From NCBI RefSeq assembly GCF_963921235.1, contig NC_086097.1, positions 126,730,001 through 126,794,000 of the forward strand: a stretch of 64,000 nucleotides of DNA. Reading direction: 5' to 3'. This document shows, one piece after another, positions 33,012 through 61,309 of the stretch (positions are counted from its first letter, which is position 1; each line of letters begins with the position of its first letter). The notes below the pieces were generated by a model. It was not told the origin of the DNA. It saw only the letters and a list, made by a program, of their open reading frames with translations, and made no database searches. Source of the DNA: Mobula hypostoma (Eukaryota). The position numbers and the translations under genes are program-made.

Positions 33012-33108
33012 CTTGGAACTGCTGATGGAAAGAAGATCAGAAATTAATTAAAATATACAAAATGTGTATAAACACTGAACTTTTTAAAAACTCTAAATGA
33101 ATGTTACA

Positions 33109-33855: not shown

Positions 33856-33905
33856 AATAAAGCTTCCTTGCAGACAGCTGTAGATTTTCTTAAGTGAAGA
33901 ATAAA
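33856..33905 (+). terminator. Candidate SNRNP48 polyadenylation signals
   Basis: AATAAA at 33856-33861 and 33900-33905, the first canonical hexamers I found downstream of the stop codon. Confidence 0.55.
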
Positions 33906-35362: not shown

Positions 35363-35440
35363 ATGAAGAAATTTGAATTAGCAGACAGCCATCATATTGG
35401 GACCTATTGGAAGGAACCAATGGCAGATATAAAAGTAAAG
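35363..35440 (+). CDS. Candidate first coding exon of an unrecognised secreted/membrane protein (ATG at 35363 or 35420)
   Basis: MKKFELADSHHIGTYWKEPMADIKVK then strong phase-0 donor AAG|GTAAGA; in-frame stop immediately upstream of 35363. Confidence 0.3.
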
Positions 35441-37644
35441 GTAAGAATGTTGCTATTTGCAAACAGTGAAAATTATTGTTAAAAAGTGTTGGAAGGGGAA
35501 CCAAATTAACTGTCAACGCATTATTTAGTTCCGTATAACTTGGTTTCTAAATTTAAATTTAAATTTGATATAAACATCTTTAGTTCAAAATGTCTGACTT
35601 TAGATGAAGTCTAACAACTTACTGAAGTTTCTTGTGTTGGTGTCAGAGGCTGAGGGGAGACTTGATAGAAGCTTACAAATTTACAGGAGGATAGATAGGA
35701 TAGACAAGCTTTTTACCAGGTGTTAGAAACGTAAAGTACTATATATGTTGTTAAGGTGAGTGGGAAAACTTAAAGGAGATGTGTGGGGCAAGTTTAGGAG
35801 TGGGTAGGTGCTTGAAACTGGCTGCCATGGGTAATGGTGGAAAGAAATAGGCTAGTGGTATTTGTGACTGCTGATGGTTTAATTTGGCATAGTGTTCAGC
35901 ATAGACATCATGGGCCAAAGAGCCTGATCCTATGTTCTATGTACAAGAAAGGATAACTCGGTAATAGAATGCATGACTGCAAATAAAATAAAATGCATAT
36001 TTGGGAGAAATGTTTCTACAAACGTTATACCACTTCTATCCCTCAAGGGTGAGGATAGCTGATATAAAAAGGGAAATGACTATTAATAATGTAAGTGGTA
36101 AACACCAAATGCTTTGCATTCCAAAGAAGTTTGGGACATATCACCTAAAGTAGCAGCAGTTATGTCTAGTTGTAAATTAAATTGACTGCTTTTGATACAT
36201 GCAGGCAGTTTAGCACCTCAGCAATCTTAATAGTAAACCAAATAAAGCTGGATTTGCATTGATGTTTAAACTATTAAAAATGTGTTGTACTTTCATTTGA
36301 TTAGATTACTTGAAATTTGAACATTTTTCTAAAATTACATACTTTGCAATATTTATAAAATAAAATGTTTATTCAAAGAGCAGCTAAATGCCCAGCAACT
36401 TTATGGGTGAGAGAGGATACATTTAAAATATTTGCATTGTTTGTCTTTGAAAAGAAAATCGCTGAAAAGGTGCTATGTACAACCATGCTATTTAGATTGC
36501 TTCTAGTGTTTATAATTTGTTTTAAGATATGCAGAGTTAGTGTTCATTAAAGTTAATGGATTAATTATGCACTAAATATTTTACAATGACTTCTGAATAT
36601 CCAGCAAAATTGTTGAGAATCTTAAAAGTTTAAATGACTTATAAAGACCCTTGAGAATTTATGGTTCTCATAAGGTAGATGAAAGACAATGATGTTCTCT
36701 GCTCATCTATGGACCCATCATAGGTGGGAATATTGAATTTTATATTTGGTTGTGCAGCTACAGAGTTGAGGTTTTGTTTATTTAAAAACACTTACATGAC
36801 AGGTCATTCAAAGACCTTTAGATTAAGAGTTCAGAAGAGGCCATTTTTGCCTTTAAGGCTTCAGGAAAGTGTTTATTTTGTTACTTAGATACGTTATTGC
36901 AACTGCTGACCATGAAGGTATCCATAGGCTGACTGAAACAAGGTTAAAGGGAAAGATCATTGAAGACGTTAATACTAACCAGACAAAGTTGAGTTATTAT
37001 AAATGGGGAGTGAAAGTTATTTCCTAACAAAAGCATAATGCTGGAAGTCGGGGAAGAAGAAAAGGATGGTTGCTTCCCAGAATACCTCCATTCACACCTC
37101 AGGGCTACTCTGACCTTGCAGATTGTCACTTCAATTCTCTATCTCACTCCCACTTTGAATTTTCTATCTTCAGCTCCTACTTTGTTCCAATGATGCACGA
37201 CATCAGCTTACAGAACAGCCCTCCTACATTATCACCCTCAGGACGTAGTAAATTATTGAGTTTAACAGTTTCAGTTAACCTTTTCTCCCTTTTTACACAG
37301 ATGCAAAAGTAGCTTAGTTTCAGTTTATTTTGTTTGAATTTGTTCAATTACAGCACTATTGTTCAAAGTAAGTTTTATTATCAAAGTACATGTATGTTAC
37401 CCTATACAACCCTGATATTCATTTTCTTGTGGGCATACTCTACAAATTTATAGAATCAGTGAATAGACCGTCCAACTAGGGCGTTCAACCAGAGTGCTAT
37501 AATTGAATGGATGATTGTATTCAATAGAGCTATCAAACAGCATTTGCTTAGCAACAACCTGCTCTGTGGGTCATACCAAAGTCATTCAATTCTTGACCTC
37601 GTTGTAAACTTGGTCATCGAAGACCCACTGTCACTATTGCCTTA

Positions 37645-38160
37645 ACATAGAAGAGCATGGCACGAGCAGGCCATTTGGCCCATAGTGTTGTGCCGAAACA
37701 GCTAAGAAGCAAATCTAAAACCATCCAAACAGTAATTCTTCCTACCTACACCATGTCCATATCGCTCATCTTCCTTACATCCATGTGCCTATCCAAACAG
37801 CTCTTAAAAGCGTGTAATGTATTTGCCTCTACCAGCGTATTAGGCAGCACATTCCAGGCATCCATGACTCTTGAGTAAAAGGTTTACCCCTCATATCCTG
37901 CTTGCACCTTCCCCCACTCGTATTGGACATTTCAACCCTGGGAAACAGATACTCTCTGTCCGCACTATCTATGCCTCATAATCTTGTAAACTTCTATCGG
38001 ATCTCCCCTCAGCCTCCAATGCTCGAGAGAAAACAACCCGAGTTTATCCAGTTCCTCATGATAGCACATGCCCTCTAAATCAGGCAGCATCCTGGTGAAC
38101 CTCTTCTGCACCCTCTCCAAAGCCTCAACATCCTTCCTATAGTGGCAGAACCAGAAATGA
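37645..38160 (-). mobile_element. CR1 3' fragment
   Basis: Reverse-complement CR1 3' motifs (CCTGGTGAACCTCTTCTGCACCCTCTCCAAAGCC). Confidence 0.8.
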
Positions 38161-39839
38161 AACTAGCTTTCTATGTCTTGTTAATTCAGGTACAGATCTT
38201 TTCTAAATGTTAGGGGAGTTTCTCACTCATTCAAGCAGTGCATTCTGGATCCTAACAGTTTTCCTCTTTAAAAAAAAAACAAACTGAGAAACTCTGGGAC
38301 AGATAGCATCTGTTGAGGGAAATGGACAGTGGACATATTGTGTCGAGACCCTTCATCTGAACTGAAAGATAAAGACCATAAGACAAGACAAAGGGGAAAA
38401 TGGCCAGTCGAAAGAGGTACTCAACCCTCATCAACACCCTTTGTGCAAGCTACCTTCCCTCTACATTTCAGTCCAGATGAAGAATCTCAACCTGAAATGT
38501 AGACCATCCATTTCCTTCCACAGTTGCTACTTGACCCACTGAGTTCCTCCAGCAGTTTCTCACTGCAGATTCTGGCATCTGCAGTCTCTTAATCTTCCAG
38601 TCTTTATTTGCTTGCCCCTCCTTCCTTACTGAAGGACTTGATTGTGCCGAAGCATAATTCCCTGGGGTTTGAAAAGCCTTGCAGTCAGTGTACAAAGTTT
38701 GCATCTTAAAATGTATTCTTCCTGCAAGGGTAGAATAATAACTGGAAGTACTTAATTTATCCCCTCTCAAACATATTGCAAAGCTTAATCAGTATAAGTA
38801 AATTTTAGGCGTGATTTATGCATGGAAAGACTGCAATATCTGGAAGAGTACTTTCAGTTCTTAGTAGGTGTATGAAAGTCACTTGTATATGAAGTGTAAC
38901 TAGTACAAAGGAGATGCACATTACATGAAAGAGAGGCTATCTCTTTGTATTTGCACTCAAGATGGAGTGAAGGAGCCAAACCAAACAGGCTGAGTGATGC
39001 ACAGATATCCCATTCATCCCTGTGTACCTGACAAAATGTTCGTAACTTTATGTGGAATGTCTCTCCTGCAGTGGGAAATGCTTCTGGTCTTAAGTTTTAT
39101 CCAAATTCAGCAGATTCACTTTGCTGCTGCTTATCTGAATTAGCTTGTACAACTTGATAAATGTTATCTGGCATTTGTTCAGCACGATTTAGAAATTTTT
39201 AAATTTGAAGGGGCAACATGTTCAAGCTTTGAAGATGTCCACTACCCAGTGAAGAAAATATTATTATTTTTCACTATACAGATTGAATATCATTCAGCTG
39301 TTCCTTTTGCATTCAAAATGGCATCAACTTTGATGCATGTTGGTGTTTATTTTCTTACTGATTTTAATTCCATCTCACTATTGAAAGTGTTATGTCCATG
39401 CTGGGTACAGTCCAGAAAGGTTTTGCCCCAGTGCACAATGTGTGGAAAGAGAAACAGTTAACATGTTCAGCCTATCTGAGAAAGAAAGAAAATGAGTTTT
39501 GTATTTTTTTTCTCCCACAGATGCTACCTAACCTGGTGAGTGTTTCCAGCCTTTTCTGGTTTTATTTCATACTGTTTAGAGCATACTTCCAGCAGAAGTC
39601 ACAGAGTAATTCAGAAGCATCCAAATGTTTTCTTCCTCAAATTCATTCTATATGCAATATGTGAATGCTGTGCCACTCTTATACAAATGGTGACTATTTC
39701 TAGATCAATTGCTGGTTTCAATTATAAAGTCAGCAGACTCAATTTAAGGTAAGGTACCAATGAATATTGGGCAATAGCAATATATGAAGTTATGACCTCA
39801 TTGAGTTAGAACATACTGTTCTGGTTGCCACACTAGACT

Positions 39840-40745
39840 AGAGATAGATAAATAGATATACTTTATTAATCCTGAGGGAAATTTGGTTTCGTTACCGCCA
39901 CACCAACCAAGAATAGAGCATAAATATAGCAATACAAAAAAACCCCAACAATCAAACAACTAAATGCAAAAATATGCCAGATGGAAAATAAGTCCAGGAC
40001 CAGTCTATTGTTTCAGAGTGTCTGACCCTCCACGGGAGGAGCTGCATGTTTGATGGCCACGGGCAGGAACGACCTCCCGTGCCCCCAGGTGTTGTACCAT
40101 GGTGGAATCACGGAGGAAGGATGTAGTAACAACAGAGAATTCCCCACGACATCTAAAATAGAGGTCTGTAGTTATAAGAGGAGATTAGACAGCCTGGGTT
40201 TATTCTTACCGGAGAATAGGAGGCTGAGGGTGATTTTATGGGGGTCTACACACTTATGAGTGGTGTAGATGGGATGGACAATCAGAATATTTATCCCAGG
40301 GCAAGGGAATCCAGAACTAGAGGGGACAGAATTGAGGTGAGGAGAGAAATTTAATGGAAATCTGACAGGCAAGTTTTTAGGTGGTGGTTATTTGAAATGA
40401 GCAGCTAAAAGCCGAGGCAATTGTTACATTTAAAAGGAGATTGGTTGGGTACTTGGATAAGAAACGTATAGAGGGATAGGGGCCTAATTCATGAAAATGG
40501 GGTTAGGATAGATGGATAGATATACTTTATTGATCCCGAGGGAAACTGGGTTTCGTTACAGTTGCACCAACCAAGAATAGAATATAAATATAGCAATACA
40601 AAAACCACAAACAATCAAACAACAAAATGCAAACTATGCCAGATGGAAAGTAAGTCCAGGGCCAGCCTATTGGTGCAGGGTGTCTGACCCTCTATGGAAG
40701 GAGCTGCAAAGTTCGATGGCCACAGGCAGGAACAACCTCCCGTGA
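39840..40745 (-). mobile_element. Two short copies (~39840-40110, ~40508-40745) of the same LINE 3' end with (TATC)n tails, inserted in a CR1 fragment
   Basis: Near-identical ~240-bp direct repeats starting GATAGATA..TACTTTATT; + strand CR1 sequence lies between and around them. Confidence 0.65.
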
Positions 40746-43157
40746 TAGATAGACAAGGTTAGCTTGGTTAAGGTGGGCTGAAAGAACTAATTCCTGCTCT
40801 GTGCATTTCTAGATTCTATCAGTGCCAGAATGGACTTGAAGGTGATAGCTTGCTCTTAATACTGCATTAATCCATTATTGTTAACTGGGCAAAGAATGGG
40901 ACTACATTTGCAATCGAGATTTATGTGGTTCTGTTATTTGCAATAAATTTGGGTGCCCCCTGTGATGATCATTCATTGTGTTTCTTGCATTTTCTGTGAA
41001 TGTCTGCGAGAAAATTAATCTCAGGGTTGCATATGATATATGTTCTTTGATAATAAATTTACTTTGATTATAGCTCAAAATATTCACTTCCAGTAGTGCT
41101 TGTGGGGAAAATGTGTTAAATTATAGATGACAAGGAAAAAAGCCCCCTTTTAAAAAATGATTCTACAATGCCTCACAACAGATTGTGAAGTTAACAGAGT
41201 TGTGAATGATATGCTCATTTCTGTATTTATTTGGAGGCTTATCTATTCCACAGTAATGTAAATTGATCATCAATGAAAGGTATTCTAAAGCAGTTTTGTT
41301 TTTAAATCAATGCTAATTATTATTTGAAGATAAGACACCAGTTTAATTTCTCATTACTCTGATATTTTGAGACAAAAAGTTAACATGATTTTTTTTTATC
41401 CAATCCCTTTACAACTGTGACTGAATAGCAATACATTTTAATATATGAAAGGGCTTTGCATATGGGTGAAAGAGTGTTTCATCTATGGCACCATTGGAAT
41501 CCAACAAGGATGAAAGGTCCCTCTGTTTGTTGGCATATGTTAAGTATTCGTGAGTGTTTGTATTGAGTATGCACCAAGACACTGATGATGCTGAAAAAGG
41601 CGGTCTCAAGGGCACTGGCCAATTAGTGCATATGTTCAGTTTGTGTTGGTGGTGAATGACAGGCATTTCTGAAGGTAAGAGGTACTGATGGTAAACAGTG
41701 CATTACTCTACACCTAATCCATCAGTCAGTTTATTATCTCACTACTTGCATCGCCATCATGGGCTACAAATATACATGGATGCTAGAATTACTGTAGTAA
41801 GTGCACACCTGGAGTGGAGGCAAAAAGTGATTGGAGTTGTTTGACTTGGATAGAAAGAGCATAGAAATGCTGAGAGCTGGGACAGACTAGATCATCATTT
41901 TGCTCACCTTGGCCATCTACGGAGCTCCATACTGCAACTATTCAAATTTGCCTTCCCACTACCATGTCCGCCCCTGGCCTCCCCTATTGTCGTCCTGAGG
42001 CTATGTGCAAACAAGAGGGAAAAACTTCCTATACCACCTGGGTGATCTATAACCGATGGAATAAACATTGAATTTTTCTTCAATTTCAAGTAAACTGCTC
42101 CCTCTCTGTCCCTTTTACTTTTCTCTCACCTCTAATCTACTCAGTTCCTCCTACACCCACATAGCCCTCTACATCATCCTGTCTCCTTCCCATCTCCCCA
42201 TCATCCATACACATCATCTACTGGATTCCTATTTGCCTAACGTATGTTCCTGATTTGGTTCTATGCTCCACCTTCCTTTTCCATTATCTGCTGGCCTTTA
42301 TTACCTCCACCTACCACTCCCCTCACCCCTGCACTCTTTCTGTCCATTTCCACTCTTCCCTCCTCTATCTGCATATCGCTCCTCAGCTGGATCACCCTCT
42401 GGTTTGGCAGTTGTTGGTCCTCCCCTTGCCCCTAACTACTTTTTACTGGCTATATCCCTTCTACCTCTCAGTCCAGATGAAGGGTGTCAATGCAAAATAT
42501 CGACTGTCCACTCCCCTGAGTTCCTTCAAAGTTTTGTGTGTTGATGGAAATACCAAATAAGTTCTTTCTCTCAACCAGGTCGTCACCCTCCTAGTTCATG
42601 TCAACCGTAATTACCCATTAATAGTAACTGTAAACTCAACTCATTTTATTTACATCACCTTGCCCCAGACTATACCATTCATCTCCCCATTGGGGGAACT
42701 TTACAGTACAATAGCCCCGCCTTTGAGACTTTTTTTTTACCATGCCCATGGTCTGCTCTTTATCAAATTACGGTATTGCTTTGCACTGTTGTAACTATAT
42801 GTTATAATTATGTGGTTTTTGTCAGTTTTAGTCTTGGTCTGTGTTGTGTTTCTGTGATATCATACTGGAGGAGCATTGTATCATTTCTTAATGCATGCAT
42901 TAATAAATGACAATAAACGAGGACTGAGTGTCCTCGTAATGTAAATAGCCAATTATCTTGCCAATGTACAAGTCTTTAGGATGTGGAAAAAAAACAGGGA
43001 ACCCTGGTTACAGGGACAGCATGCAAACTCGACACAGAAGGCAGCACAAGTCAGGAATGAGTCCCAGGATGCTGGGGCTGTGAGGCAGCAGCTCTAAAGA
43101 TATTTCCTTATCCTACAGTCATTAATTTATTAATTTCTTTTTAATTCAAACTTGCAG

Positions 43158-43266
43158 GTTTCTTTTTCGTCACCAAGCTGCTGTGTGCTGTGGCTTGTTA
43201 CTCATTTTCTAATCTCTCACTATTCACTTGACACTTACTGTCAGGAGTATTCAGGCTCTGTTTCTG
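43158..43266 (+). CDS. Candidate exon encoding a signal-peptide-like segment
   Basis: TTGCAG| VSFSSPSCCVLWLVTHFLISHYSLDTYCQEYSGSVS+G |GTGAGT; only the phase-0 frame is open, and it ends in phase 1. Confidence 0.4.
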
Positions 43267-44984
43267 GTGAGTAGGATCTGAGAAGATAGTTTAATATTAA
43301 ATGATATATGCCTGCTTCTTCCACCAGCCTGTATGTCTATTGTAGTTTTACAATTTGACGGACATCTTTTCAAAGGTTAAAACTTGATAGTTTTCCAAAA
43401 CAAATGAAAACAAATAATTCTATAATACCTCTATTGTGATCAATTTTGATAATCTGTTGTTCTTATTGTATACATGCAGCACCTAAACAGTTTTTATGCA
43501 GCTACAATATGCCTGATGTTAAATATTTGGTGAATTGATTACACTCCTGTGATGCATCTTGAGTGGTTTTGCACCACAATGTCTTTCATAAAAGGGAATT
43601 GTTGATGTGTACGTACTTTGTTTAGTTTCATTTCGTAAGTTAGCTTATTTTTCTTAAACGTCCTGAAATACTCTGAAAAATTTGTCTTGTGTACCATCCG
43701 TGCAGTTCATTTCATTACAACACCACGTTGAGATTTACAATAACGGAATGCAGAAGGGAGGATTACAGTTACAGAGAAAGTGCAGTGCAGAAAGAAAAAC
43801 AAGGTGCAAGACTGTATTGAGGTGGTTTTAGAGGTCAATAGTCCATCTTATCTTACTAAGGGTCTGTTCAATGGTCTTAAAACAATGGGATGGAAGCTGT
43901 CCTTGAGCCTGGTGGCATGAGCTGTCAGGGTTTTTTTTTCTTTTGCCCGATGGGAGGGGGAGAGAAGAGAGAGCTTTACCAAGGCAGTTGACAGAGTCCA
44001 TGTGAGAAAAGCTATTTCTCTATTCTGCAATTTGGACTTTCTGTAGGATAATCTTAATTATCATTTCTAATATCTCTGGCAAAATTAAAACACCTATATT
44101 TTTGTTTATTTTTCAAAAATAGCTGCCTGTGTTACAGACTTTTTTTTCTGTCTGCAGCTTATTTTCTGACCTTTTGCCAACATTTTACTGTGTGTAAAGT
44201 GCATAGCTCATTGTACAGTTAATTGTTTCAGGCTCACAAAAAAAAATGCAATATTCTTAAAAAGTCAGAATTATTCCATGAAGTCAAGCTGGAAACATAA
44301 AAGCTTGCATTTTGCTTTGTTGCAGCGGTTTGCTCTGTACACTCCTTAATGACCAAGAATGCATTGATACATTGTGAATCCGGTATTAATGATTTCTCAT
44401 TCCTGCTTATATACTGCATGCTTTCTGTAGAAGTACTATGAAATGAACTTATGCTGTTGTATCTCATTGCTGGTGTTAGTTGAGTATGAATCAGGGCACA
44501 GTGTAAACGTCCTGAAAATACATGTGATTTATATAAAACTTCCACTGTAACTGTCCACAGAAGTAGTTTAGTGCCAGGCAGATGTACTAAATAAAGAAAT
44601 GAGAGAAGTTAAAGGTTCCATATAAAATGTAGCATTTATTTAATATTTTTCTATGAAGATGCATTATTTGGCGTTACATTGTAAAATTATGAAATCCTCA
44701 AGGACATGCATACAATTAGCGAAATAGTGGGAGGAAAACAATTGCGGACATTGTGTCTTTGATCTCTGAATTTCAAAGGGGACATTTGTTTTGAGATAGT
44801 TCCAGATGACTGCATTGCTCCCTTTAATATCAGTAATTTTGAAGATTCTTAAATTGTTGTGAGGTAATAAAGTGTAATTAAATTGGAAATGTTTAGTAAC
44901 TGTCAAAGGCTTCAAAACCTCCAATTGGCTTAAACATAGAACAATACAGCACTGGTCAGTCCGTTCAGTCTATGATGCTATTTA

Positions 44985-45446
44985 CGAGGGGTGATTGATA
45001 AGTTCGTGGCCTAAGGTAGAAGGAGATGAGTTATTAACTTCAAACTTTCTGCATTATCACTCAGTGTTGAACTGTAGGTGCATGTAATGAGAGCACCTTG
45101 GACCTCCAGGTGGTCCACAGCAGGGGTGATTGATAAGTTTGTGGCCTACGGTAGGAGGAGATGATTTATACAGCTCTCGTTACATGCACGTGCAGTTCAA
45201 CTCTGAGTGAAAATGCAGAAAGTTTGAAGTTTCTCCTCATCTCCTTCTACTTTAGGCCACAAACTTATCAATCACCCCTGCTGTGGACCATTTCTGGAGG
45301 TCCAAGACGCCGACTTCGACATAGAAGGGACCTGTGTGCTCCATGACCGCTGGACTAAGTGTGTAAATATAGGAAAAATAAATGTGCTAGGTTTTCTAAA
45401 ATTGACTCCTTCTACCTTAGGCCACGAACTTATCAATCACCCCTCA
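44985..45446. mobile_element. mariner-like fold-back MITE, same family as 8057-8626
   Basis: TIR CGAGGGGTGATTGATAAGTTCGTGGCCTA; TA flanks. Confidence 0.8.
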
Positions 45447-46794
45447 TATACTAAATGTATTCCTGTTTATCATCCACTCCCTCATTCTTATATGGAGTTA
45501 AATGCATCTTAATTAACCTGCCTACTTCCTGCACTATCCCTGGTAACCTCTTCCAGGCAGCTACCACACTCTGTTTTAAGAAAAAACAACTTGCCCTCAC
45601 GTTACTTTTAAACTTCTACCCTCTAACCTTTATTGGAAAGTACTTATTTAGTACTAAGGTCTTCAGTCAGCCTTGACACTCTCGAGAACAACCCAAGTTT
45701 GTCCAGCTTTCCCTCATAGCTCATACCTTCTAATCTGGGCAGCATCCTGGTAATCCTCTTTTGCATCCTCTCCACAGTCTCTGTAGAAAAACTAGAATTA
45801 CACGCAATATGTAGTCAGACTGAAGTTTGTATACGTAGCTGCAGCATGACTTTGCTACTCATAGTCAGACTCCTACCGATGAAGATAAGCATGCCGTATG
45901 TCGTCTTCATCATCTTATTCACTTGCATATATGGACCAGGACCACAAGATCCCTTTGTACCTGAATACTATTAAGGGGCCTACCATTAACTGGAAATTTT
46001 CTTCTTTCATTTGACTTCCCAAAATGTGTCACCTCCCCCCTCGCGCCCCTCCCCCACCCCCCGGCTTTCCTGGATTAGTCTGTCATTTCCCTGCCCATAT
46101 CTGTATCTGGTCTATATCCTGCTGTATTCTTTAATGGTCCTTTACACCATCCACAACTCCACCGATCTTCGTGTCATTCTGCAAACTTGAAATCCATGCA
46201 TCTCCACTTTCATCCAAATCATTGCTAAGTGTCAGAAACAGAGGTCCCAGCACTAATACTTGCGGACACAATCGGTCACAGACCTCCAGCCAAAATGACA
46301 GTCTTCAACCCCTACTCTGTCTTTATGGGCAAGCCTGTTCTGAACCCAACTTACAATTCACTCTGGATCTCATGCATCTTTACCTTCTGAATCAACTCAC
46401 CATGAAGGACCTCATCAAGTGCCTTTCTAAAGTCCATGTAAATGATATCCACTGCCATAAATCTCAAGCTCCTTTGTCATCTCAAAAGATTGACGAAAAC
46501 TTCATAGTTCAATGTAGTGATCCTGGCTCTAAGTTAATCCTCTTTCCCCACAATAGTCCTAGCATTGAAATAAACAGTGTTCTGCCCAACACTCCCACCA
46601 TGTTTATTAGCTTGCCCCTTGCTGTCCATCCTTTCAGTCTTGCTTGTCATACTGTCCTTCTTGCCCTCAACCCTACTACCCGTTGCCATGTTTCTGTGTT
46701 TCCCACTCCTCTGCCACTCTAGTTTAAATTCTTCCAAGTAGCACTAGTAAACTTCCCAGCGATATTGACTCCCCTATAGTTCAGATGCAAACCA

Positions 46795-47344
46795 TGTTAC
46801 ACGGAAGTGGATTCAGTAAGTGGGACAAAAGACACTGATTGTGAGTAAGCACATTAGCTATTTACAAACAACAAAACACTCAGCTAAACATCTATGTCAA
46901 AGAAGTACTTATCTAAACTCTTCCCCCAAGTTACAAAATTGCGATACTAAGCATTCAATAACACTTCTAACTTAAATAGGAACTTCGTTAAATCCCCCTA
47001 CACCCCCCCCCCACACCAAGTTACACAGCTACAACACTAAACATTTAACAAACAGGTACTTGCCTAAGTGTGCATGGGGGCCCTCCTTTCTGCAGCACAC
47101 TTTCCCAATGGTCCTTCAGCTCTGGTCACGACCCAGCCTGACGGGGAGCCCTTGACAAAAAGGGGCAGAGGGTATCGCACTCGCTATTCATGTGCCTCTG
47201 GGGTGCCTGAAACCAGAAGCCGGTGCCATGGCATGAAAGCCAGCCAATGGGAGAGAGCTGCCACATCCTTCAGATGGGCCAATCAACTACTGGCACGGTG
47301 GAAGCAGCTTTCAATCGGCAGGTAAGTTAGCCCTTCACTTTACA
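46795..47344. mobile_element. Probable solo LTR inside a degenerate minus-strand CR1 (~45450-49100)
   Basis: TGTTAC...TTTACA ends; imperfect 4-bp flanks ACCA/GCCA; CR1-like sequence is continuous across it. Confidence 0.5.
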
Positions 47345-47559
47345 GCCATCTTGTTTGTACAGGTCTCATTTGCCCAGCAGGAGAACCCAAATGATGCATA
47401 AATCTGAAGCCGCCTGCACCAGCTCCTTCACCAAGTGCTACATATATATTTCTCACCTCAGTAGCACATGGCCCAATGATCGATATATCCAAAGCCCTCC
47501 CTTCTGCACCAGCTCTTTAACAATGTACTGAACTGCACTATTTCTTACCTCATTAGCAC

Positions 47560-48805
47560 ATGGAATTGGTCGTAGTCTTGAGCTTTTGAGATTTTCTTTG
47601 TCTAGTCCCATTTGTTATATTTTTTTAAAATCTTCAATAACCGATTCAGTATTAAATCCTTCCAGGATTTGCTTACTGGAGGAAGTCTTCTTTTGTTTGA
47701 GCAAATGTCAGCTAAATATAGTTTACCCAAAACTCACTTTTTTTTGTTATTTACAAATTAGAGACTTTCTGCGTTCTCAACTATATACATTTCCTATACG
47801 TTACGATAAGGACTTATTAGATGTAATTTTTAATTTTAAACCTTTTTATAATGGTTCAATATCCAATAGTTATAGTACGTTGCTAGGAATGAGAAATGCT
47901 CCTATAGACAAAATTAAAAATCTTTGTGAACAAGATTTACAGACTTCAATCTGAGGAAACTTGGAATGAAATTTTTAAATTGGTTAACACTTCATCATTA
48001 TGTGCCCGTCATTCCCTCTTACAACTTAAAGGGCTCACATATCTGAAGATAAGCTATCTCATTTTTATTCGGATAGATCTCCTTTCTGTGATAGATGTAA
48101 TAATGGAAAAGCTTGATTAATTCTCATGTTTTGGATATGTCTGAGCATTGAAAGATACTGGAAGGAAGTATTCCAAACTTTTTCGGTACTCTGCAAGGTA
48201 AATTTTAAGCCTAACCCTTTGTCCACATTATTTGGTATTGCTGGAGGAAAAGACTTTATTTTGGAGATACCTGATTTGCATATTTTGGCTTTTATCTCTC
48301 TTATAGCTAGGAGAGTGCTCTTGCTAAAATGGGAGGATGCTGTTCCGTCTACTCATGCTCAATGGTTACGTGATGTTATGTCATGCTTAAATTTAGAGAA
48401 GATCCGTTGTTCAGTTTTTGAATCATTTTGTTGAAGTCTTGAATCTAGCCAAGACATTTGTACATTTTGGGGACCATTTTTGAGTTATTTTCAAAACCTT
48501 TGATTTGTTGTAAAAGTACAGATGGTGGTTAATAATATATTTTATTATATGATAAGGGTTTTTCCCCCATTTTTCTTGCTTTTCCTAACAGCTCTGACTT
48601 TGGTAGTGGGTTTAGATTTTTTTCTGTATAACAAAATGATTATATTTCAATATTACAATTTAATTTAATTTTTATGAGTACAGGGTTTTGTGAATGTAAC
48701 ATAATACAATGTATTTGGTACTATTTTATTTTTTATTTTGACTTATAATGTATCTTCTTGTAAACTGTATTCTTCTATGGAAAAACTAATAAAAATATTG
48801 AAAGA
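47560..48805 (+). mobile_element. L1-like LINE 3' fragment
   Basis: ORF2 C-terminal motifs (MFW.C...YWKEVF, LLLKWE..P....WL, LEKIR); AATAAA and A-rich end. Confidence 0.8.
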
Positions 48806-49639
48806 GATTCTGAAAGGTCACATTGCCACCCCCACCAACCCCTCCCAACAGTACCTGCCTACTTTCCTTACTTCTGGTGGTCACCTATCTGGCTGTAGCC
48901 TGTACTTGCTACAACCACCTCAGGAAAACTCATCTATGATATCCCCAGTCTCCTGGATGATCCTGAGTATATCCAGCCGCACCTCCACTTCCTTGACCTG
49001 GTCTTTCATGAGCTGCAGCTGGGTGCACCTGACTTCCCAAATCTTAAAGGAGGAGTATTCCATTGCTCTGACTGGCATTTTGTCTACACTATCAAAGGTC
49101 ACAGATAAAAAGGAAATTAAACGAAAAACTCAGCCTTGCCTTCCCACCAAAGCCTCTTTAGCCGAAGTATCAGCTCAGCTTCTCACTCTCAAAATGGCCA
49201 TTCTGCCCAACCCTACCTTCTTTTTATTGGCTGAGTTGGCACACACTTAACCAATTTTAATAAAGCTGTTGGCTCCTCCCATCTATTCTAGCTGGAAAAA
49301 TAAGCTCTCAACTGAAAAGTTAACTGCTATAAAGCTGCTGGCTAATCCCCTCTGCTGCTCTGGCTGAACCTCTTTGTCACAAATCCCTTTAGCTGTTCGG
49401 GGTGGAATGTTGAAATCCTGCTGAGTAGATATTAGAGAGGGACAGAATATATTTTGCTCCAGACCCGTGTCAGAACTTCGCTTATACAGCACGTTATAGA
49501 TGTTAGCCTTGCATGTCACCTTTGAAATACTAGATCTGGTGGAACATCACTTCTCCATTCTATAGCAATCGAAGTTTGTGCAAATGCCAGCAGCAAACCT
49601 TCTCTTGGATTGACCTTCCCATGCAATTATCACCCAAAA

Positions 49640-49850
49640 TGCACAGCACAGTGGGAAGAGATTTGCAGCTGCTGCCTCCCAGCTCCAGACACAGGGGTTC
49701 AATTCTGATCTCCAGTGCTGTCTAATTGGAGTTTGCACATCTTCCCTTCTCAATGTGGCTTTCCCCCATGTTCCCTGGTTTCATCCTACATTCCACAGTT
49801 GTGTGGGTATGTAGATTGATTGTCTATTATAAAATTAACCCTATTGTGGA
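49640..49850 (+). mobile_element. HE1/V-SINE-like element (other copies ~42925-43095 on -, ~59714-60050 on +)
   Basis: B-box-like GGTTCAATTC followed by V-core-like GGAGTTTGCACAT..TTTCCCC..GGTTTCATCCTACATTCC. Confidence 0.65.
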
Positions 49851-50105
49851 TAGGTGGGGAACTGGTGGATGACTGAGAGGCTATATAGTAGAATAAAGAG
49901 GTGTACTGAAAGCCTCAAAAGGATGGCATCAACATAATAATCCAAATGGCCTCTTCTGTTCAATAAGGAAATTGGAGAGTATGAGAACTATATCAAATAT
50001 ATATACAGGAGAGGTCTACCATGCCCAGTTGTCTAACTCTCTGGGGTGGGTTGGTACCATGGTAACAGTCAGGGTGATGGTTCAAAAACATCAGTTCTTT
50101 CTACT

Positions 50106-51384
50106 CAAACACAAGGAAATCTGCAGATGCTGGAATTTCAAGCAACACACATCAAAGTTGCTGGTGAACGCAGCAGGCCAGGCAGCATCTCCAGGAAGAG
50201 GTACAGTCAACGTTTCGGGCCGAGACCCTTCGTCAGGACTAACTGAAAGAAGAGCTAGTAAGAGATTTGAGAGGGGGAGGGGGAGATCCAAAATGATAGG
50301 AGAAGACAGGAGGAGGAGAGATGGAGCCAAGAGCTGGACAGGTGATTGGCAAAAGGGATATGAGAGGATCATGGGACAGGAGGCCTAGGGAGAAAGAAAA
50401 GGGGGAGGGGAGAAAAAGCCCAGAGGATGGGCAAAGGGTATAGTGAGAGGGACAGAGGGAGAAAAAGGAGAGAGTGAAGAATGTGTGTATATAAATAAAT
50501 AAATAACGGATGGGGTACGAGAGAGAGGTGGGGCATTAGCGGAAGTTTGAGAAGTCAATGTTCATGCCATCAGGTTGGAGGCTACCCAGACGGAATATAA
50601 GGTGTTGTTCCTCCAAACTGAGTATGGCTTCATCTTTACAGTAGAGGAGGCCATGGATAGACATATCGGAAAGGGAATGGGACATGGCCACTGGGAGATC
50701 CTGCTTTCTCTTGCGGACAGAGCATAGGTGTTCAGCAAAACGATCTCCCAGTCTGTGTCGGGTCTCACTAATATATAGAAGGCCACATCGGGAGCACCGG
50801 ATGCAGTATATCACCCCAGCCTACTCACAAGTGAAGTGTCACCTCACCTGGAAGGACAGTCTGGGGCCCTGAATGGTAGTGAGGGAGGAAGGGTAAGGGC
50901 TTGTGTAGCACTTGTTCCGCTAACAAGGATAAGTGTCAGGAGGGAGATTGGTGTGGAGGGATGGGGGGGACGAATGGACAAGGGAGTTGCGTAGGGAGCG
51001 ATCCCTGAGGAAAGCGGGGGTGGGGGGAAGAAAAGATGTGCTTAGTGGTGGGATCCCATTGGAGGTGGCGGAAGTTACGGAGAATAATATGTTGGACCCG
51101 GAGGCTGGTGGGGTGGTAGGTGAGGACAAGGGCAACCCTATTCCTAGTGTGGTGGCGGGAGGATGGAGTGAGAGCAGATGTGTGTGAAATGGGGGAGATG
51201 CATTTGAGAGCAGAGTTGATGGTGGAGGAAGGGAAGCCCCTTTCTTTAAAAAAGGAGGACATCTCCTTCGTCCTGCAGATGCAGCAGAGACGGAGGAATT
51301 GCGAGAAGGGGTTAGCATTTTTGCAAGAGACAGGGTGAGAAGAGGAATAATCCAGATAGCTGTGAGAGTCAGTAGGCTTATAGT
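50106..51384 (-). mobile_element. 5'-truncated Penelope-like retroelement
   Basis: GIY-YIG remnant IYCIRCSRCGLLYISET..RFAEHL; RT thumb YYKPTDSHSYLDYSSSHP; 13-bp TSD AGTTCTTTCTACT (50093-50105, 51385-51397). Confidence 0.9.
50205..50240 (-). ncRNA. Minimal type I hammerhead ribozyme motif (GUU triplet)
   Basis: Minus strand reads AGTC-CTGACGA-AGGGTCTCGGCCC-GAAAC-GTT-GACT: stem I AGTC/GACT, core CUGANGA and GAAA, stem II hairpin. Confidence 0.7.
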
Positions 51385-53449
51385 AGTTCTTTCTACTGCT
51401 CACTCCTGCCCATGCACTGACCTGGATACAGAGAGGAAAAAAATGGTGTAAATCAAAATTGATTTGGCATCTCCTGAGAGCAAGGGGTGTAGATGGGGTG
51501 GAGTTTGTTAGGTGTGTTCAGGAAGGTTTCCTGACACAATATGTAGATAAGCCTTCAAGAGGAGAGGCTGTACTTGATCTGGTATTGGGAAATGAACCTG
51601 GTCAGATGTCAGGTCTCTCAGTGGAAGAGCATTTTGGAGATGGTGATCATAATTCTATCTCCTTTACCATAACATTGGAGAGAGATAGGAACAGGCAAGT
51701 TAGAAAAGTGTTTAATTGGAGTAAGTGGAATTATGAAGCTATCAGGCAGGAAATTGGAAGCTTAAACTGGAAACAGATGTTCTCAGGGAAAAGTACGGAA
51801 GAAATGTGGCAAATGTTCAGGGGATGTTCTGCATAGATAGGTTCCTATGAGATGGAAAGGATGGTAGTGTACAAAGGCTGTTGAAAATCTAATCAAGAAG
51901 AAAAGAAAAGCTTACAAAAGGTTCATAAAACTAGATAATGGTAGAGATCTAGAAGATTATAAGTCTAGCAGGAAGGAGTTTAAGAATGAAATTAGGAAAG
52001 CCAGAAGGGGCCATGAGGAGGGCTTGGCGGACCGAATTAAGGAAAACGCCAAGGCATCCTACAAGTATGTGAAGAGCAAGAGGATAAGACATGAGAGAAT
52101 AGAACCAATCAAATGTGACAATGGAAAAGTATGTATGGAACTGGAGGAGATAGCGGAGGTACTGAATGAGTACTTTGCTTCAGTATTCACTATGGAAAAA
52201 GACCTTGGCGATTGTAGGGATGACTTGCAGTGGACTGAAAAGCTTGAGCATATAGACATTAAGAAAGAGGATGTGCTGGAGCTTTTGGGAAGCACCAAGT
52301 TGGAGAAGTTACTGGGACCGGATGAGATATACTCCAGGCTACTCTGGGAGGTGAGCTGAGCCTCTGGTAATGATCTTTGCATCATCAATGGGGATGGGAG
52401 AGGTTCTGGAGGATTGGAGGGCTGCGGATATTGTTCCATTATTCAAGAAAGGGAGTAGAGATAGCCCAGGAAATTATAGACCAGTTAGTCTTAATTCAGT
52501 GGTTGGTAAGTTGATGCAGAAGATCCCGAGAGGCAGGATTTATGCACATTTGGAGAGGCATAATATGATTAGGAATAGTCAGCATAGCTTTGTCAAAGGC
52601 AGGTTGTGCCTTACGGGCCTGATTGAATTTTTTGAGGATGTGACTAAACACATTGATGAAGGTAGAGCAGTAGATGTACTGTATTTGGATTTTAGTAAGG
52701 CATTTGATAAGGTACCCCATGCAAGGCTTATTGAGAAAGTAAGGAGGCAAGGGATCCAAGGGGACATTGCTTTGTGGATCCGGCATTGGCATGCCCACAG
52801 AAGGCAAAGAGTGGTTGTAGACGGGTCATATTCTGTATGGAGGCTGGTGACCAGTGGTATGCCTCAGATCTGTTCCCTTCTCTTCATGATTTTGATAAAT
52901 GACCTGGATGATGAAGTGGAGGGACGGGTTCGTAAATTTGCTGATGACACAAAGGTTGAGGTTGTTGTGGATAGTATGGAGGGCTGTCAGAGGTTTTGCA
53001 TTGATAGGTTGCAAAACTGGGCTAAGAAGTGGCAGATGGAGTTCAACCCAGATATGTGTCCGCCATCTCCGTCTCCAAGGCCATGACGTGGAACTCTTTT
53101 TCCGACGGCTCCGTCTCCGAGCCTACTTCTTCAGCAAGGACTCTCCCACCCCCACCGATGACCCCTTCTCCCATCTTCAACCCTCCTCCTCTTCATGGAC
53201 ACCTCGCTCTGGTCTTCTGCCTGCTCTGGATCACTTTATTGCTAACTGCCGACGGGACATCAACCGTCTCGACTTCACCACACCTTGTCCCCATTCCAAC
53301 CTCACTCCTTCCGAACGCTCTGCTCTCCACTACCTCTGCACTAATCCTAACCTTACTATAAAACCCGCCGATAAGGGGGGTGCTGTTGTAGTCTGGCGTA
53401 CTGACCTCTACCTTGCCGAGGCTCAGCGACAACTCGCTAATACCTCCTC

Positions 53450-54078
53450 TTATTTATTTATTTATTTATATTATGAAGACATGTAGTCCTCTTTTATTGT
53501 CATTTAGTTATGCATGCATTAAGAAATGATACAATATTTCCTCTGGTGTGATATCACAAAACACAGGACAGACCAAGACTGAAAAAACTGACATAACCAC
53601 ATAATCATAACATATAGTTACAACAGTGCAACAATACTGTAACTTGATGAAGAAGTCCATGAGCATAGTAAAAGTTCAACGTCTCTCAAATGTCCCACAT
53701 CTCACACAGACAGGAGAAGGAAGAAAAACTCTCCCTGCCATGCCGACAACAATCCGACTCTGAGTCATCCGAAAACTTCGAGCTCTGATCAGCTCTCCGA
53801 CACCGAGTACTGAGCGCCATCTCTGTCCGATCGATTTGACCTCCTTCTCGGTCGCCAAAAGCAGGCAAGGCTGGGGATTTTGAGGCCTACCCTCTGAAAG
53901 ATTCCCTACCACGCAATAAGGACAGCAGTGAATGAGCGTTTCAGAAATTTCTCCAGATGTTCCTCTGTGCTTTCACGTCCATTCTAAATCAAATCAGAAT
54001 TGTCCACGGCCCCTATTTAACAGATACGATATCATTTTTCACTGGAGGGCTGCGCCTATGCAGGCGCACCACCATCAT
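53450..54078 (-). mobile_element. Non-coding SINE-like insertion with (TAAA)n tail inside the Penelope element
   Basis: Interrupts the Penelope ORF; its tail region matches 42740-42920 in the opposite orientation. Confidence 0.65.
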
Positions 54079-56100
54079 CTCCTCCCACCCTGTCGTGACC
54101 TCACTAAGGAGCACCAGGCCGTTGTCTCCCACACCATCACCGACTTTATCCACTCAGGGAATCTCCCATCCACTGCTACCAACAGTATAGTTCCCACACC
54201 CCGCACTTCCCGTTTCCACCTCCGACCCAAGATCCACGAACCTGCCTGTCCTGGCAGACCCATTGTCTCAGCTTGCTCCTGCCTCACCGAACTCATTTCT
54301 GCATACCTCGACACAGTTTTATCCCCCCCTTGTTCAATCCCTTCCTACCTATGTTCGTGACACTTCTCACGCTCTGAAACTTTTCGATGATTTTAAGTTC
54401 CCTGGCCCCCCCACCGCTTTATTTTCACCATGGATGTCCAGTCCCTATATACTTCCACCCCCATCAGGAAGGTCTCAAAACTCTCCGCTTTTTTTTGGAT
54501 TCCAGACCTAACCAGTTCCCCTCTACCACCACTCTGCTCCGTCCAGCGGAATTAGTCCTTACTCTTAATAATTTTTCCTTTGGCTCCTTCCACTTCCTCC
54601 AAACTAAAGGTGTAGCTATGGGCACCCGTATGGGTCCTAGCTATGCCTGCCCTTTTGTTGGCTTTGTGGAACAATCTATGTTCCAAACCTATTCTGGTAT
54701 CTGCCCCCCACTTTCCCATTGCTACATCGACGACTGCATTGGCGCTGCTTCCTGCACGCATGCTGAGCTCGTTGACTTCATTAATTTTTTCCCCAACTTT
54801 CACCCTGCCCTCAAGTTTACCTGGTCCATTTCCGACACCTCCCTCCCTTTTCTAGATCTTTCTGTCTCTATCTCTGGAGACAGCTTATCTACTGATGTCT
54901 ACTATAAGCCTACTGACTCTCACAGCTATCTGGACTATTCCTCTTCTCACCCTGTCTCTTGCAAAAATGCCATCCCCTTCTCACAATTCCTCTGTTTCCA
55001 CTGCATCTGCTCTCAGGATGAGGCTTTTCATTCCAGGTTGAGGGAGATGTCCTCCTTTTTTAAAGAAAGGGGCTTCCCTTCCTCCACCATCAACTCTGCT
55101 CTCAAACGCATCTCCCCTATTTCACGCACATCTGCTCTCACTCCATCCTCCCGCCACTCCACTACGAATAGGATTCCCCTGGTCCTCAGCTACCACCCCA
55201 CCAGCCTCCGGGTCCAACATATCATTCTCCGTAACTTCTGCCACCTCCAACGGGATCCCACCAATAAGCACATCTTTCCATCCCCCCCCCCCCGCTTTCC
55301 ACAGGGATCGCTCCCTACGCAACACCCTTGTCCATTCGTCCCCCCATCCCTTCCCACCGATCTCCCTCCTGGCACTTATCCTTGTAAGTGGAACAAGTGC
55401 TACACATGCCCTTACACTTCCTCCCTTACCACCATTCAGGGCCCCAGACAGTCCTTCCTGGTGAGGCGACACTTCACCTGTGAGTCGGCTGGGGTGATAT
55501 ACTGCGTCCGGTGCTCCCGATGTGGCCTTCTATATATTGGCGAGACCAGACGCAGACTGGGGATCGTTTCGCTGAACACCTACGCTCTGTCTGCCAAAGA
55601 AAGCAGGATCTCCCAGTGGCCACACATTTTAATTCCACGTCCCATTCCCATTCTGATATGTCTATCCACGGCCTCCTCTACTGTAAAGATGAAGCCACAC
55701 TCAGGTTGGAGGAACAACACCATATATTCCGCCTGGGTAGTCTCCAACCTGATGGCATGAGCATTGACTTCTCAAACTTCCGCTAATGCCCCACCTCCCC
55801 CTCGTATCCCATCCATTATTTATTTATATACACACATTCTTTTTCTCTCTCTCCGTTTTCTCCCTCTGTCCCTCTCACTATACCCCTTGCCCATCCTCTG
55901 GGCTTTCCCCCTCCCTCCCTCTTTCTTTCTCCCTAGGCCTCCTGTCCCATGATCCTCTCCCTTCTCCAGCCTTGTATCCCTTTTGCCAATCAACTGTCCA
56001 GCTCTTAGCTCTATCCCTACCCTTCCTGTCTTCTCCTATCATTTTGGATTTCCCCCTCCCCCTCCCACTTCCAAATCTCTTACTAGCTCTTCTTTCAGTT

Positions 56101-56136
56101 GGTCCTGACGAAGGGTCTTGGCCCGAAACGTCGACT
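56101..56136 (+). ncRNA. Minimal type I hammerhead ribozyme motif (GUC triplet, predicted cleavage after 56132)
   Basis: GGTC-CTGACGA-AGGGTCTTGGCCC-GAAAC-GTC-GACT; palindromic ACGT stands in place of a full stem III. Confidence 0.75.
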
Positions 56137-57073
56137 GTAGCTCTTCCTAGAGATGCTGCCTGGCCTGCTGCATTCACCAGCAATTTTTATGTGTGTTGCT
56201 TGAAGTTCCAGCATCTGCAGATTTCCTCGTGTAAGTGTGAGGTAGTTCATTTTGGTAGGTCAGATGTGATGGCAGAATATAGTATTAATGGTAAGACTCC
56301 TGGCAGTGTGGAGGATCAGAGGGATCTTGGGGTCCGAGTCCATAGGACACTCAAAGCTACTGCACAGGTTGACTCTGTGGTTAAGAAGGCATACGGTGCA
56401 TTGGCCTTCATCAACCATGGGATTGAGTTCAAGAGCCGAGAGGTATTGTTGCAGCTATATAGGACCCTGGTCAGACCCCACTTGGAGTACTGTGCTCAGT
56501 TCTGGTCGCCTCACTACAGGAAGGATGTGGAAATGATAGAAAGGGTGCAAAGGAGATTTACAAGGATGTTTCCTGGATTGGGGAGCATGCCTTATGAGAA
56601 TAGGTTGAGTGAACTCAGCCTTTTCTCCTTGGAGCGATGGAGGATGAGAGGTGACCTGATAGAGGTGCATAAGATGATGAGAGGCATTGATCATGTGGAT
56701 AGTCAGAGGCTTTTTCCCAGGGCTGAAATGGCTAACACAAGAGGGCACAATTTTAAGGTGCTTGGAAGTACGTACAGAGGAGATGTCAGGGGTAAGTTTT
56801 TTACTCAGAGAGTGGTGAGTGCGTGGAATGGGCTGCCGGCAATGGTGGTGGAGGCGGATACAATAGGGTCTTTTAAGAGACTCCTGCGTGGCTACATGGA
56901 GCTTAGAAAAATAGAGGGCTATGGGTAACCCTTGGTAATTTCTAAAGTAAGTACATATTCGGCTATCATTGTGTGCTGAAGGGCCTGTATTGTGCTGTAA
57001 GTTTTCTATGTTTCTGAAATTCAAGTTGACCTGAATAAAGGTTGCTACTGAAGATAACTATTGTTTCCTTTAG

Positions 57074-57316
57074 GAGATGTCAGTTCACCCTCCTTGGAAG
57101 CGTCTGCCACTGAAGATTTTCACAGACAATCATCAGAAAGAGGATCGGGAAATAGTTCCCCTGAAATATCTGGTGATCTGCATATAACCACACCAAGCAT
57201 TTCCAATATCATTGAAATCCCACTGGAACTTTATCCTGAAATATCAGTTTCTGGAGAATCTGACCAAGAGGGAAGTGGGTCTCCCATGGGAAGTGTGCAA
57301 ATGCTGACAAATGGAG
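57074..57316 (+). CDS. Candidate symmetric (phase 1-1) exon encoding an acidic Ser-Gly-rich, proteoglycan-like segment
   Basis: TTGTTTCCTTTAG| (G)DVSSPSLEASATED..ERGSG..EISGD..VSGESDQEGSGS..TNG+G |GTAACG; 243 nt, open, not recognisably repeat-derived. Confidence 0.55.
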
Positions 57317-60911: not shown

Positions 60912-60930
60912 GTGTGTGTGTGTGTGTGTG
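60912..60930. repeat. (GT)n microsatellite
   Basis: Direct dinucleotide run. Confidence 0.9.
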
Positions 60931-61309
60931 TCTGAGACCAATACCCTCATCCGTCATGTACAGGGTGTTGCAATTCCTGTGCAACAGTGCTTATGTAGCA
61001 TTACAGAATAACGTGGTTGAAATTGTGCTGGGAATGACTGTTGCTAGTCACTCCCACATTGCAATCTTTTAGGGACACAATGCTCCCCTGCAAGGTAAGC
61101 AAGCCTCTTATCGTTCATCCTTCTGGCTGTCCTCTGAAGAAGACTGACCACTGTCTCCCTCTGTATCCCAGATCCGGCTTCTAATCTCCCCAAAACAACC
61201 ACCCCATCCTATCACTCCAAGGTCCTGTAGTCCTCAGTTCCCTCTCCTTTGTCATCAATCCACTGAGAAAATATAAATAACTCTGGGGTTTTGTCCAAAG
61301 TAAAAAAAA

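What the first reader, a model, noticed from the sequence alone, without database searches (positions are those of the whole stretch)
35363..57316. Unrecognised multi-exon gene downstream of SNRNP48 encoding a putative secreted Ser-Gly (proteoglycan-like) protein
Seen: three non-repeat segments with good splice sites and matching phases (0/0, 1/1) join into (MKKFELADSHHIGTYWKEP)MADIKVK|VSFSSPSCCVLWLVTHFLISHYSLDTYCQEYSGSVSG|DVSSPSLEASATEDFHRQSSERGSGNSSPEISGD...VSGESDQEGSGSPMG...TNG. This reads as a basic n-region, a hydrophobic h-region and a possible cleavage near TYC|QE, followed by six Ser-Gly dipeptides in acidic context. Established: acidic Ser-Gly motifs are glycosaminoglycan attachment sites, and phase-1 symmetric exons are typical of extracellular modules. 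In human I recall SNRNP48 being followed by BMP6 with no such gene between them. Inference: this may be a lineage-restricted matrix or cell-surface proteoglycan whose 3' exons lie further on. The 57074 exon is the best supported; the joins are my hypothesis.
Basis: inference. Interest (0 to 1): 0.75.

Follow-up and report, generated by a model that had tools for sequence, protein, structure and literature searches.

The report
Unnamed fibril-linking collagen with sugar-attachment arm
The three segments are the first exons of an intact collagen gene of a likely stingray-type fish, with auto-annotated relatives in sharks, sturgeon, amphibians and reptiles; its front end likely carries sugar chains, and it and a sister gene on another chromosome have both been cut back to the same stretch of helix, so the two may assemble together.

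Summary
The three segments are exons 1-3 of an intact 21-exon, 721-codon gene that runs 29 kb past the window. It encodes a FACIT collagen: predicted signal peptide, acidic Ser-Gly arm, thrombospondin-N domain, two triple-helical domains and the GxCxxxxC end motif. A relative's contig shows the 43266>57074 splice (one contig, 11-base overhang). Exon 1 rests on orthologue N-termini only. The gene is neither unrecognised nor lineage-restricted: databases hold orthologues, mostly labelled 'collagen IX-like', in rays, sharks, sturgeon, amphibians, turtles, gharial and geckos. It is not zebrafish col9a1c, and it lacks the vWA domain of COL21/COL22. Its sister paralogue lies beside a COL21A1-like gene on contig C2. 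Four Ser-Gly sites are among the best-conserved features of the arm, so glycosaminoglycan attachment is likely but unshown. New here: this gene and its sister both keep the same last 56 helix triplets, hinting at a heterotrimer. The scan had already noted this gene's helix decay from the adjacent window (e1-9037664). Ten literature searches found no paper on the gene.

The parts
35420..35440 (+). Coding part of exon 1 (7 codons, MADIKVK), n-region of the predicted signal peptide
   Evidence: Skate, whale shark and turtle orthologues begin MAD and, like catshark and Discoglossus, reach the QE at residue 36 as this model does. Junction not seen in reads. One of 6 short candidate first exons in 33027-43158, and one of 2 that are 21 nt long.
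35363..35419 (+). In-frame upstream extension from a second ATG; more likely 5' UTR
   Evidence: Most orthologues start at the MA/MAD position; some skate models also use an upstream ATG. Not resolved.
43158..43266 (+). Exon 2: hydrophobic core and predicted cleavage site of the signal peptide, first Ser-Gly sites
   Evidence: 94% identical to the stingray protein P0001 over 34 residues. Its last bases appear spliced to exon 3 in one contig of run X5.
57074..57316 (+). Exon 3: acidic, Ser/Thr-rich arm with four Ser-Gly dipeptides
   Evidence: 89% identical to P0001, E 7.6e-35. Open in the 4 of 4 runs laid (X5 covers only part); pN/pS 0.26-0.44 on 7-13 substitutions.
57355..57455 (+). Frameshifted intronic remnant of a ~50-residue segment that sharks, sturgeon and tetrapods still encode and batoids skip
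   Evidence: TLDVEMELLP at 57423-57452 matches shark orthologues, in a different frame from the upstream IPAR motif. Related runs carry frameshifting indels here.
59525..59648 (+).
   Evidence: 91% identical to P0001, E 6e-18; AG/GTACAT, phase 1/2.
59649..64000 (+). Intron 4, running off the window's end. Exons 5-21 lie beyond it at G000:C1:126,794,347-126,822,975: TSPN core, a decayed helix front, 56-triplet COL2 block, 41-residue NC2, COL1 and the GICESRNC end motif
   Evidence: All 20 introns are GT-AG and there is no internal stop in 721 codons.

Best explanation
These segments are exons 1-3 of an intact 21-exon FACIT-type collagen gene (gene A) lying between SNRNP48 and a vWA-bearing COL21A1-like gene, and the chain is predicted to be secreted, to trimerise, and likely to coat collagen fibrils while projecting an acidic arm that likely carries glycosaminoglycan chains. 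Shown: exon structure, open frame, domain order, orthologues, one spliced junction in a relative. Inferred from FACIT biology: a 35-residue signal peptide is removed; three chains are selected and registered by the helical NC2 domain (shown for collagen IX, PMC5126661); the GxCxxxxC motif locks the C-terminus; COL1/COL2 lie on a fibril while the TSPN domain and Ser-Gly arm face the matrix. In this ray lineage the front half of COL2 has lost exons and glycines, leaving a 56-triplet rod joined to the head by a probably flexible linker. Odds by step: identity as a FACIT chain about 0.97; functional protein in this species about 0.85; glycosaminoglycan on at least one Ser-Gly about 0.6; heterotrimer with the sister paralogue about 0.3.
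For: Exon 3 hits Hemitrygon XP_072907157.1, clustered with Hypanus 'collagen alpha-1(IX) chain-like'. The 721-residue model is 89.9% and 88.6% identical to these, 71% to skates, 62-65% to sharks and 45-49% to turtle and frogs. Pfam Collagen E 3.9e-43 on P0001. The TSPN exon matches human COL9A1 NC4 (2UUR) at E 9e-25. COL1 is 20+6+10 triplets with two short breaks, ending in GICESRNC; GXCXXXXC is given as the FACIT mark in PMC10381214 (passages). The gene A clade has 21 rows at 100/99 support and is sister to the C2 paralogue clade at 97/94. Ser-Gly 76, 103, 43 and 39 are kept in 14, 12, 11 and 9 of 15 non-batoid orthologues, against a median of 0 of 15 over 88 dipeptides of the arm. In run X6, exon 3 has 13 substitutions in 243 nt and no indel; the next 149 intronic nt have 16 substitutions and 3 indels.
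Against: The splice evidence is one contig at depth 2.2 with an 11-base overhang, from a run whose kind is not on record. The exon 1-2 junction was not observed. SignalP was not available; the hydrophobic core is the weakest of 9 sequences compared (best 11-residue mean 2.25 against 2.38-3.25). The Pfam LamG match is under its cut-off (19.8 against 27.6 bits). pN/pS rests on few sites. The Ser-Gly conservation count uses an alignment that the motifs themselves help to anchor. About 38 triplets and the cysteine linker after TSPN were not found in the genome, which fits partial decay. The AU test did not reject grouping gene A with the col9a1c-like clade (p 0.057). No protein-level or localisation data.
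Confidence: 0.85

Rival explanations
1. Gene A and its sister paralogue on C2 (gene A') are two chains of one heterotrimeric collagen, as the three collagen IX chains are; their helices must stay in register, so both were cut back together in stingray-type rays. This refines the best explanation and does not replace it.
For: Both genes have the same exon sizes for the retained block (54, 54, 54, 72, 36, 45, 33, 147, 177 nt), a 41-residue NC2 with the same three cysteines, and a 20+6+10 COL1. COL2 is 112-113 triplets in shark and frog gene A and in chimaera A'. In this genome both keep the last 56 triplets and have lost or degraded exons in front. The Hemitrygon models of both are also short there (P0001, P0067). 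The neighbouring COL21-like genes keep long runs of helix exons.
Against: Helices fold from the C-terminus, so the N-terminal half is the loosest in any chain; turtle, gecko and caecilian gene A, and skate and turtle A', also show breaks or shortening there. With about a dozen upstream exons, a shared boundary has roughly a 1-in-12 chance (my estimate). One fully intact 54-nt exon survives upstream in each gene. No binding or co-expression data.
Confidence: 0.3
2. The gene is transcribed but decaying in this lineage, on its way to becoming a pseudogene along with other fin-fibre matrix genes.
For: About 7 exons are absent and two retained exons have lost glycines. The col9a1c-like paralogue carries an in-frame stop in its NC2 exon. 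Batoid pectoral fins lack ceratotrichia (PMC13543312, passages). The one spliced contig has low depth.
Against: 721 codons with no stop and 20 of 20 canonical introns. The last 56 COL2 triplets and COL1 keep every glycine. pN/pS is below 1 in 4 of 4 runs. The same shortened form is open in two stingray models. Frogs and reptiles, which have no fin fibres (recalled), keep the gene.
Confidence: 0.1
3. One reading: a lineage-restricted, stand-alone secreted Ser-Gly proteoglycan.
For: Six Ser-Gly dipeptides in an acidic, Ser/Thr-rich stretch (16% D/E, 28% S/T). The arm alone found only 2 proteins at E up to 1e-10 among 1.84 billion representatives, a stingray and a skate.
Against: The frame runs on through TSPN and collagen exons, and the full-length orthologues read here join the arm to these domains. 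The arm's narrow hit list reflects fast divergence; the TSPN domain finds orthologues out to geckos.
Confidence: 0.02

Closest known systems
RefSeq/UniRef auto-annotated orthologues labelled 'collagen alpha-1(IX)-like', 'alpha-2(IX)-like', 'alpha-1(XXII)-like' or uncharacterised (Hypanus XP_059828305.1, Hemitrygon XP_072907157.1, Amblyraja XP_032874910.1, Rhincodon XP_048452216.1, Xenopus laevis XP_018124912.1, Chrysemys XP_023958630.1)
   Same: One clade; same domain order, NC2, COL1 and Ser-Gly arm.
   Different: Names are by similarity only. The two stingray models miss exon 1 (the Hypanus model reads into intron 1, where this genome has a stop) and end at the second cysteine. Shark and frog forms have a 112-113-triplet COL2.
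Collagen XXI (COL21A1) and XXII
   Same: TSPN followed by collagenous domains and a FACIT end; gene A sits directly upstream of a vWA-TSPN collagen that groups with sturgeon COL21A1 at 100/100. The Bmp5-Col21a1-Dst block is conserved in human, turtle and zebrafish (PMC9928969, passages).
   Different: No vWA domain in gene A or the orthologues scanned; the acidic arm stands in its place. Grouping with the COL21-like rows is rejected narrowly (p 0.032).
Collagen IX alpha 1 and zebrafish col9a1c
   Same: TSPN without vWA; the TSPN core lies in one open exon in both gene A and the col9a1c-like gene; collagen IX is a heterotrimer selected by NC2 (PMC5126661) and carries chondroitin sulfate on alpha 2 (recalled).
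   Different: Gene A has two collagenous domains; collagen IX has three (recalled). Human COL9A1 NC4 scores 90 bits against gene A but 154 against another ray gene, L023. The col9a1c primer ends in PMC10119692 match the L023 family (P0084, P0085, P0087), not gene A.

Membership tests
FACIT collagens | GXCXXXXC at the COL1/NC1 junction | tested here: met
   GICESRNC at residues 695-702; definition from PMC10381214 passages.
FACIT collagens | N-terminal thrombospondin-N (LamG-like) domain | tested here: met
   E 9e-25 to human COL9A1 NC4; Pfam Laminin_G_3 weak, under cut-off.
FACIT collagens | Short triple-helical domains separated by non-collagenous domains; COL1 with two imperfections (this detail recalled) | tested here: met
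   56 triplets, 41-residue NC2, then 20+6+10 triplets.
FACIT collagens | Secreted through a cleaved signal peptide | tested here: inconclusive
   Hydrophobic stretch from residue 16 and QE at 36 as in 5 of 8 orthologues; no signal-peptide predictor available.
FACIT collagens | Binds the surface of collagen fibrils | not testable with these tools
   Needs localisation or binding assays.
Collagen IX alpha 1 / col9a1c orthologue | Three collagenous domains (recalled) and a place in the COL9A1-like clade | tested here: not met
   Two domains in the full-length orthologues examined; a different ray gene is the col9a1c match. The TSPN tree separates them, though the AU test alone does not reject one clade (p 0.057). 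No named COL9A1 from a tetrapod was in the tree.
Collagen XXI / XXII orthologue | vWA domain before TSPN | tested here: not met
   No vWA in P0001, P0034 or P0012; the nearest genomic vWA match is 57 kb past the stop, in the next gene (150 of 208 candidates scored).
Proteoglycan (part-time) | Ser-Gly dipeptides in acidic context | tested here: met
   Six sites, four of them conserved beyond batoids.
Proteoglycan (part-time) | Glycosaminoglycan chain actually attached | not testable with these tools
   Needs lyase digestion or glycoproteomics.

The most novel reading that the evidence does not exclude
Jawed vertebrates have an undescribed heterotrimeric, glycosaminoglycan-bearing FACIT collagen built from two duplicated genes, one beside BMP6 and one beside COL21A1/BMP5, lost in mammals; in stingray-type rays both chains, on different chromosomes, were trimmed to the same 56 helix triplets, a genomic footprint of their partnership.
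Probability: 0.25. Interest if true: 0.65.

Novelty: new member of a known kind. Interest (0 to 1): 0.4.

Why it matters
The collagen family list is built on mammals. This is an old FACIT lineage, kept from sharks to frogs, turtles, gharial and geckos, that carries misleading 'collagen IX-like' labels and for which 10 literature searches found no paper. Naming it properly would correct matrisome tables for Xenopus, reptiles and sharks, and Xenopus offers a direct knockout test. If the matched truncation of the two paralogues reflects a heterotrimer, matched exon loss becomes a way to read collagen chain partners from genomes. As a single gene in one ray it is ordinary: databases already hold it.

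Tried and rejected
Sequencing runs: no RNA holder was listed for exon 3, which says nothing on expression. Laying 4 runs on 43000-59800 was swamped by repeats and its tables were cut; no exon joint was listed, and only the X5 contig edge was useful. Zebrafish col9a1c as the orthologue: rejected. Fin-specific gene lost in tetrapods: rejected, since frogs and reptiles have it. Absence from mammals, birds and teleosts: none of the 46 hits is from a mammal or bird, and its three teleost hits fall in paralogue clades. But only 7,995 candidates were scored and even mammalian COL9A1 and COL21A1 did not appear, so this is not a test. The ESM Atlas search returned only generic TSPN, pentraxin and LamG clusters. 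The idea that the col9a1c-like gene is a third, equally truncated chain: not supported, as it keeps a long run of COL2 exons and has a stop in NC2. A recalled zebrafish name (si:dkey-65b12.6) gave one passage calling it uncharacterised (PMC12826582); no link to this gene was tested. No structure or complex prediction was run: a pass on NC2 would not tell homo- from heterotrimer. Literature searches found no paper on this gene; most subscription journals are not in the library and no supplements were read, so matrisome tables may list it. A sequence look-up in earlier findings returned nothing.
Full report
Observation. The window is G000:C1:126,730,001-126,794,000. The upstream gene carries the U11-48K zinc finger (E 1.3e-11), which supports the SNRNP48 label; its last exons lie near 32.7-33.0 kb as read by eye. 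Two TGF-beta domain exons lie about 570 kb downstream on the same strand; calling them BMP6 rests on the recalled human order.

What it is. The 80 residues of the 243-nt exon found one protein among 118 candidates: Hemitrygon akajei XP_072907157.1, 682 residues, 89% identical, with collagen repeats. It clusters with Hypanus sabinus 'collagen alpha-1(IX) chain-like'. Mapping these proteins on the window plus 200 kb downstream gave a fourth exon inside the window (59525-59648) and 17 more beyond it, at C1:126,794,347-126,822,975. The 21 exons give 721 codons with no internal stop and 20 of 20 GT-AG introns. The order is: predicted signal peptide (35 residues), acidic arm (89), TSPN domain, a decayed helix front, 56 uninterrupted Gly-X-Y triplets, a 41-residue NC2 with three cysteines, COL1 of 20+6+10 triplets, and GICESRNC. 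The last motif is the FACIT mark GXCXXXXC (PMC10381214, passages). From 89-90% identity to two stingrays and its place in the tree, the genome is likely a stingray-type ray.

The joins. In run X5 (a related organism, kind not on record) one 202-nt contig of depth 2.2 begins at the exon 3 acceptor with 11 loose bases equal to the end of exon 2; that 11-mer occurs once in the window. This is below the tool's 31-base bar for a bridge, but a chance match at the predicted place is about 4^-11. It rests on orthologues: skate (an assembled contig, P0034), whale shark and turtle start MAD, and 5 of 8 orthologues place the QE at residue 36 as this model does. Six short candidate first exons lie between SNRNP48 and exon 2; two are 21 nt long, and only 35420 starts MAD. 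Exon 3 is open in the 4 of 4 runs laid, with pN/pS 0.26-0.44 on 7-13 substitutions; one run has an in-frame 12-nt deletion. Just downstream in the intron is a frameshifted remnant of a segment that sharks and tetrapods still encode.

Range. The TSPN domain found 24 proteins among 1,342 candidates and a profile found 46 among 7,995 scored. A tree of 42 TSPN domains (34 database domains chosen to span taxa, the window model and seven ray paralogues; partial and near-duplicate hits left out) puts the window gene in a 21-row clade at 100/99 with rays, skates, sharks, sturgeon, caecilian, frogs, turtle, gharial and geckos. No mammal, bird or teleost row falls in it, but the search also missed mammalian COL9A1 and COL21A1, so loss is untested.

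Paralogues. The next gene downstream has vWA, TSPN and collagen exons and groups with sturgeon COL21A1 (100/100). The same tandem pair recurs on C2: gene A' upstream of a COL21A1-like gene. A fused sturgeon model runs A', COL21A1 and a BMP domain in that order (P0065), and Bmp5-Col21a1 adjacency is published (PMC9928969, passages). A and A' are sisters at 97/94. AU tests, set after seeing the tree, rejected A with the COL21-like rows (p 0.032) but not A with the col9a1c-like rows (p 0.057). Zebrafish col9a1c belongs to a third family, L023: the primer-derived mature N-terminal and C-terminal peptides in PMC10119692 (whole text read) match its members. The simplest reading is an ancestral tandem pair copied by genome duplication; this is inference.

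Ser-Gly arm. Four of the six sites rank among the best-conserved dipeptides of the arm: kept in 14, 12, 11 and 9 of 15 non-batoid orthologues against a median of 0. The other two are batoid-only in this alignment (2 and 4 of 19). The alignment is partly anchored by these motifs. Glycosaminoglycan on FACITs has precedent (collagen XII large form, PMC2199960, abstract start in a search listing; collagen IX alpha 2, recalled). Attachment here is likely, not shown.

Helix truncation. Shark and frog orthologues have 112-113 triplets in COL2 and a skate 108. This genome lacks about 7 exons of the front part, with no N bases in the region, and two remaining exons have lost glycines. An earlier agent reported this decay from the adjacent window (e1-9037664); I had found it before reading that note, and my count (about 38 triplets plus the linker) agrees. 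What I add: A' on C2 has the same retained exon sizes and also keeps the last 56 triplets (one imperfect triplet, shared by the A' rows examined), with about four exons missing and others degraded in front, whereas both COL21-like neighbours keep long exon runs. Since NC2 selects and registers chains in collagen IX (PMC5126661, passages), matched trimming is what a heterotrimer would leave. Against this, N-terminal helix halves are loose in several lineages, and the coincidence is only about 1 in 12.

Verdict. A real gene, correctly spotted and largely correctly joined, but a FACIT collagen already held in databases under borrowed names. It is a new, unnamed member of a known kind. Ten searches of the open library found no paper on it. 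Interest 0.4, carried by the conserved Ser-Gly arm and the paired truncation. Papers seen: PMC10119692 whole text; PMC10381214, PMC7034273, PMC12826582, PMC13543312, PMC7932699, PMC9928969 and PMC5126661 passages; all others search listings only.

Noticed in passing
G000:C1:126,880,472 to about 127,101,000 (loci L010-L088), + strand: A second collagen gene (vWA, TSPN, many 54-nt helix exons) that groups with COL21A1 at 100/100 but lies on the BMP6-like side; likely a COL21A1 duplicate without a human counterpart (the latter recalled). It has a long branch in the tree.
   Followed up: partly
G000:C2:87,445,000-87,505,000, - strand (loci L034-L040): Sister paralogue A' with a long Ser/Thr-rich arm in other species; the chimaera model P0070 has a vWA domain between arm and TSPN, which the shark and skate models lack.
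   Followed up: partly
L128 (G000:C1, near 154,696,190): The col9a1c-like gene has an in-frame stop at the end of its first NC2 exon, agreeing with two earlier notes that call it a pseudogene.
   Followed up: partly
window 57355-57455: Decayed remnant of a coding segment lost in batoids; whether it was the tail of exon 3 or a separate exon in sharks is open.
   Followed up: partly
G000 whole genome: No second COL9A1-like TSPN exon was found besides L023, so the true COL9A1 N-terminal domain was missed by the search, is withheld, or is absent in this assembly.
   Followed up: no
window 50900-56930: Nested retroelement stack in intron 2: a Penelope-like reverse transcriptase frame (54378-55760, 460 aa) and CR1-like LINE pieces (labels from recalled motifs), very high-copy in related runs.
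   Followed up: no
L004 (G000:C1, near 126,822,950) against P0005, P0034, P0030, P0001, P0002: Skate orthologues have a different, longer C-terminal tail, and the stingray models stop at the second cysteine; the window gene keeps the shark-like tail. The NC1 end is labile in batoids.
   Followed up: no
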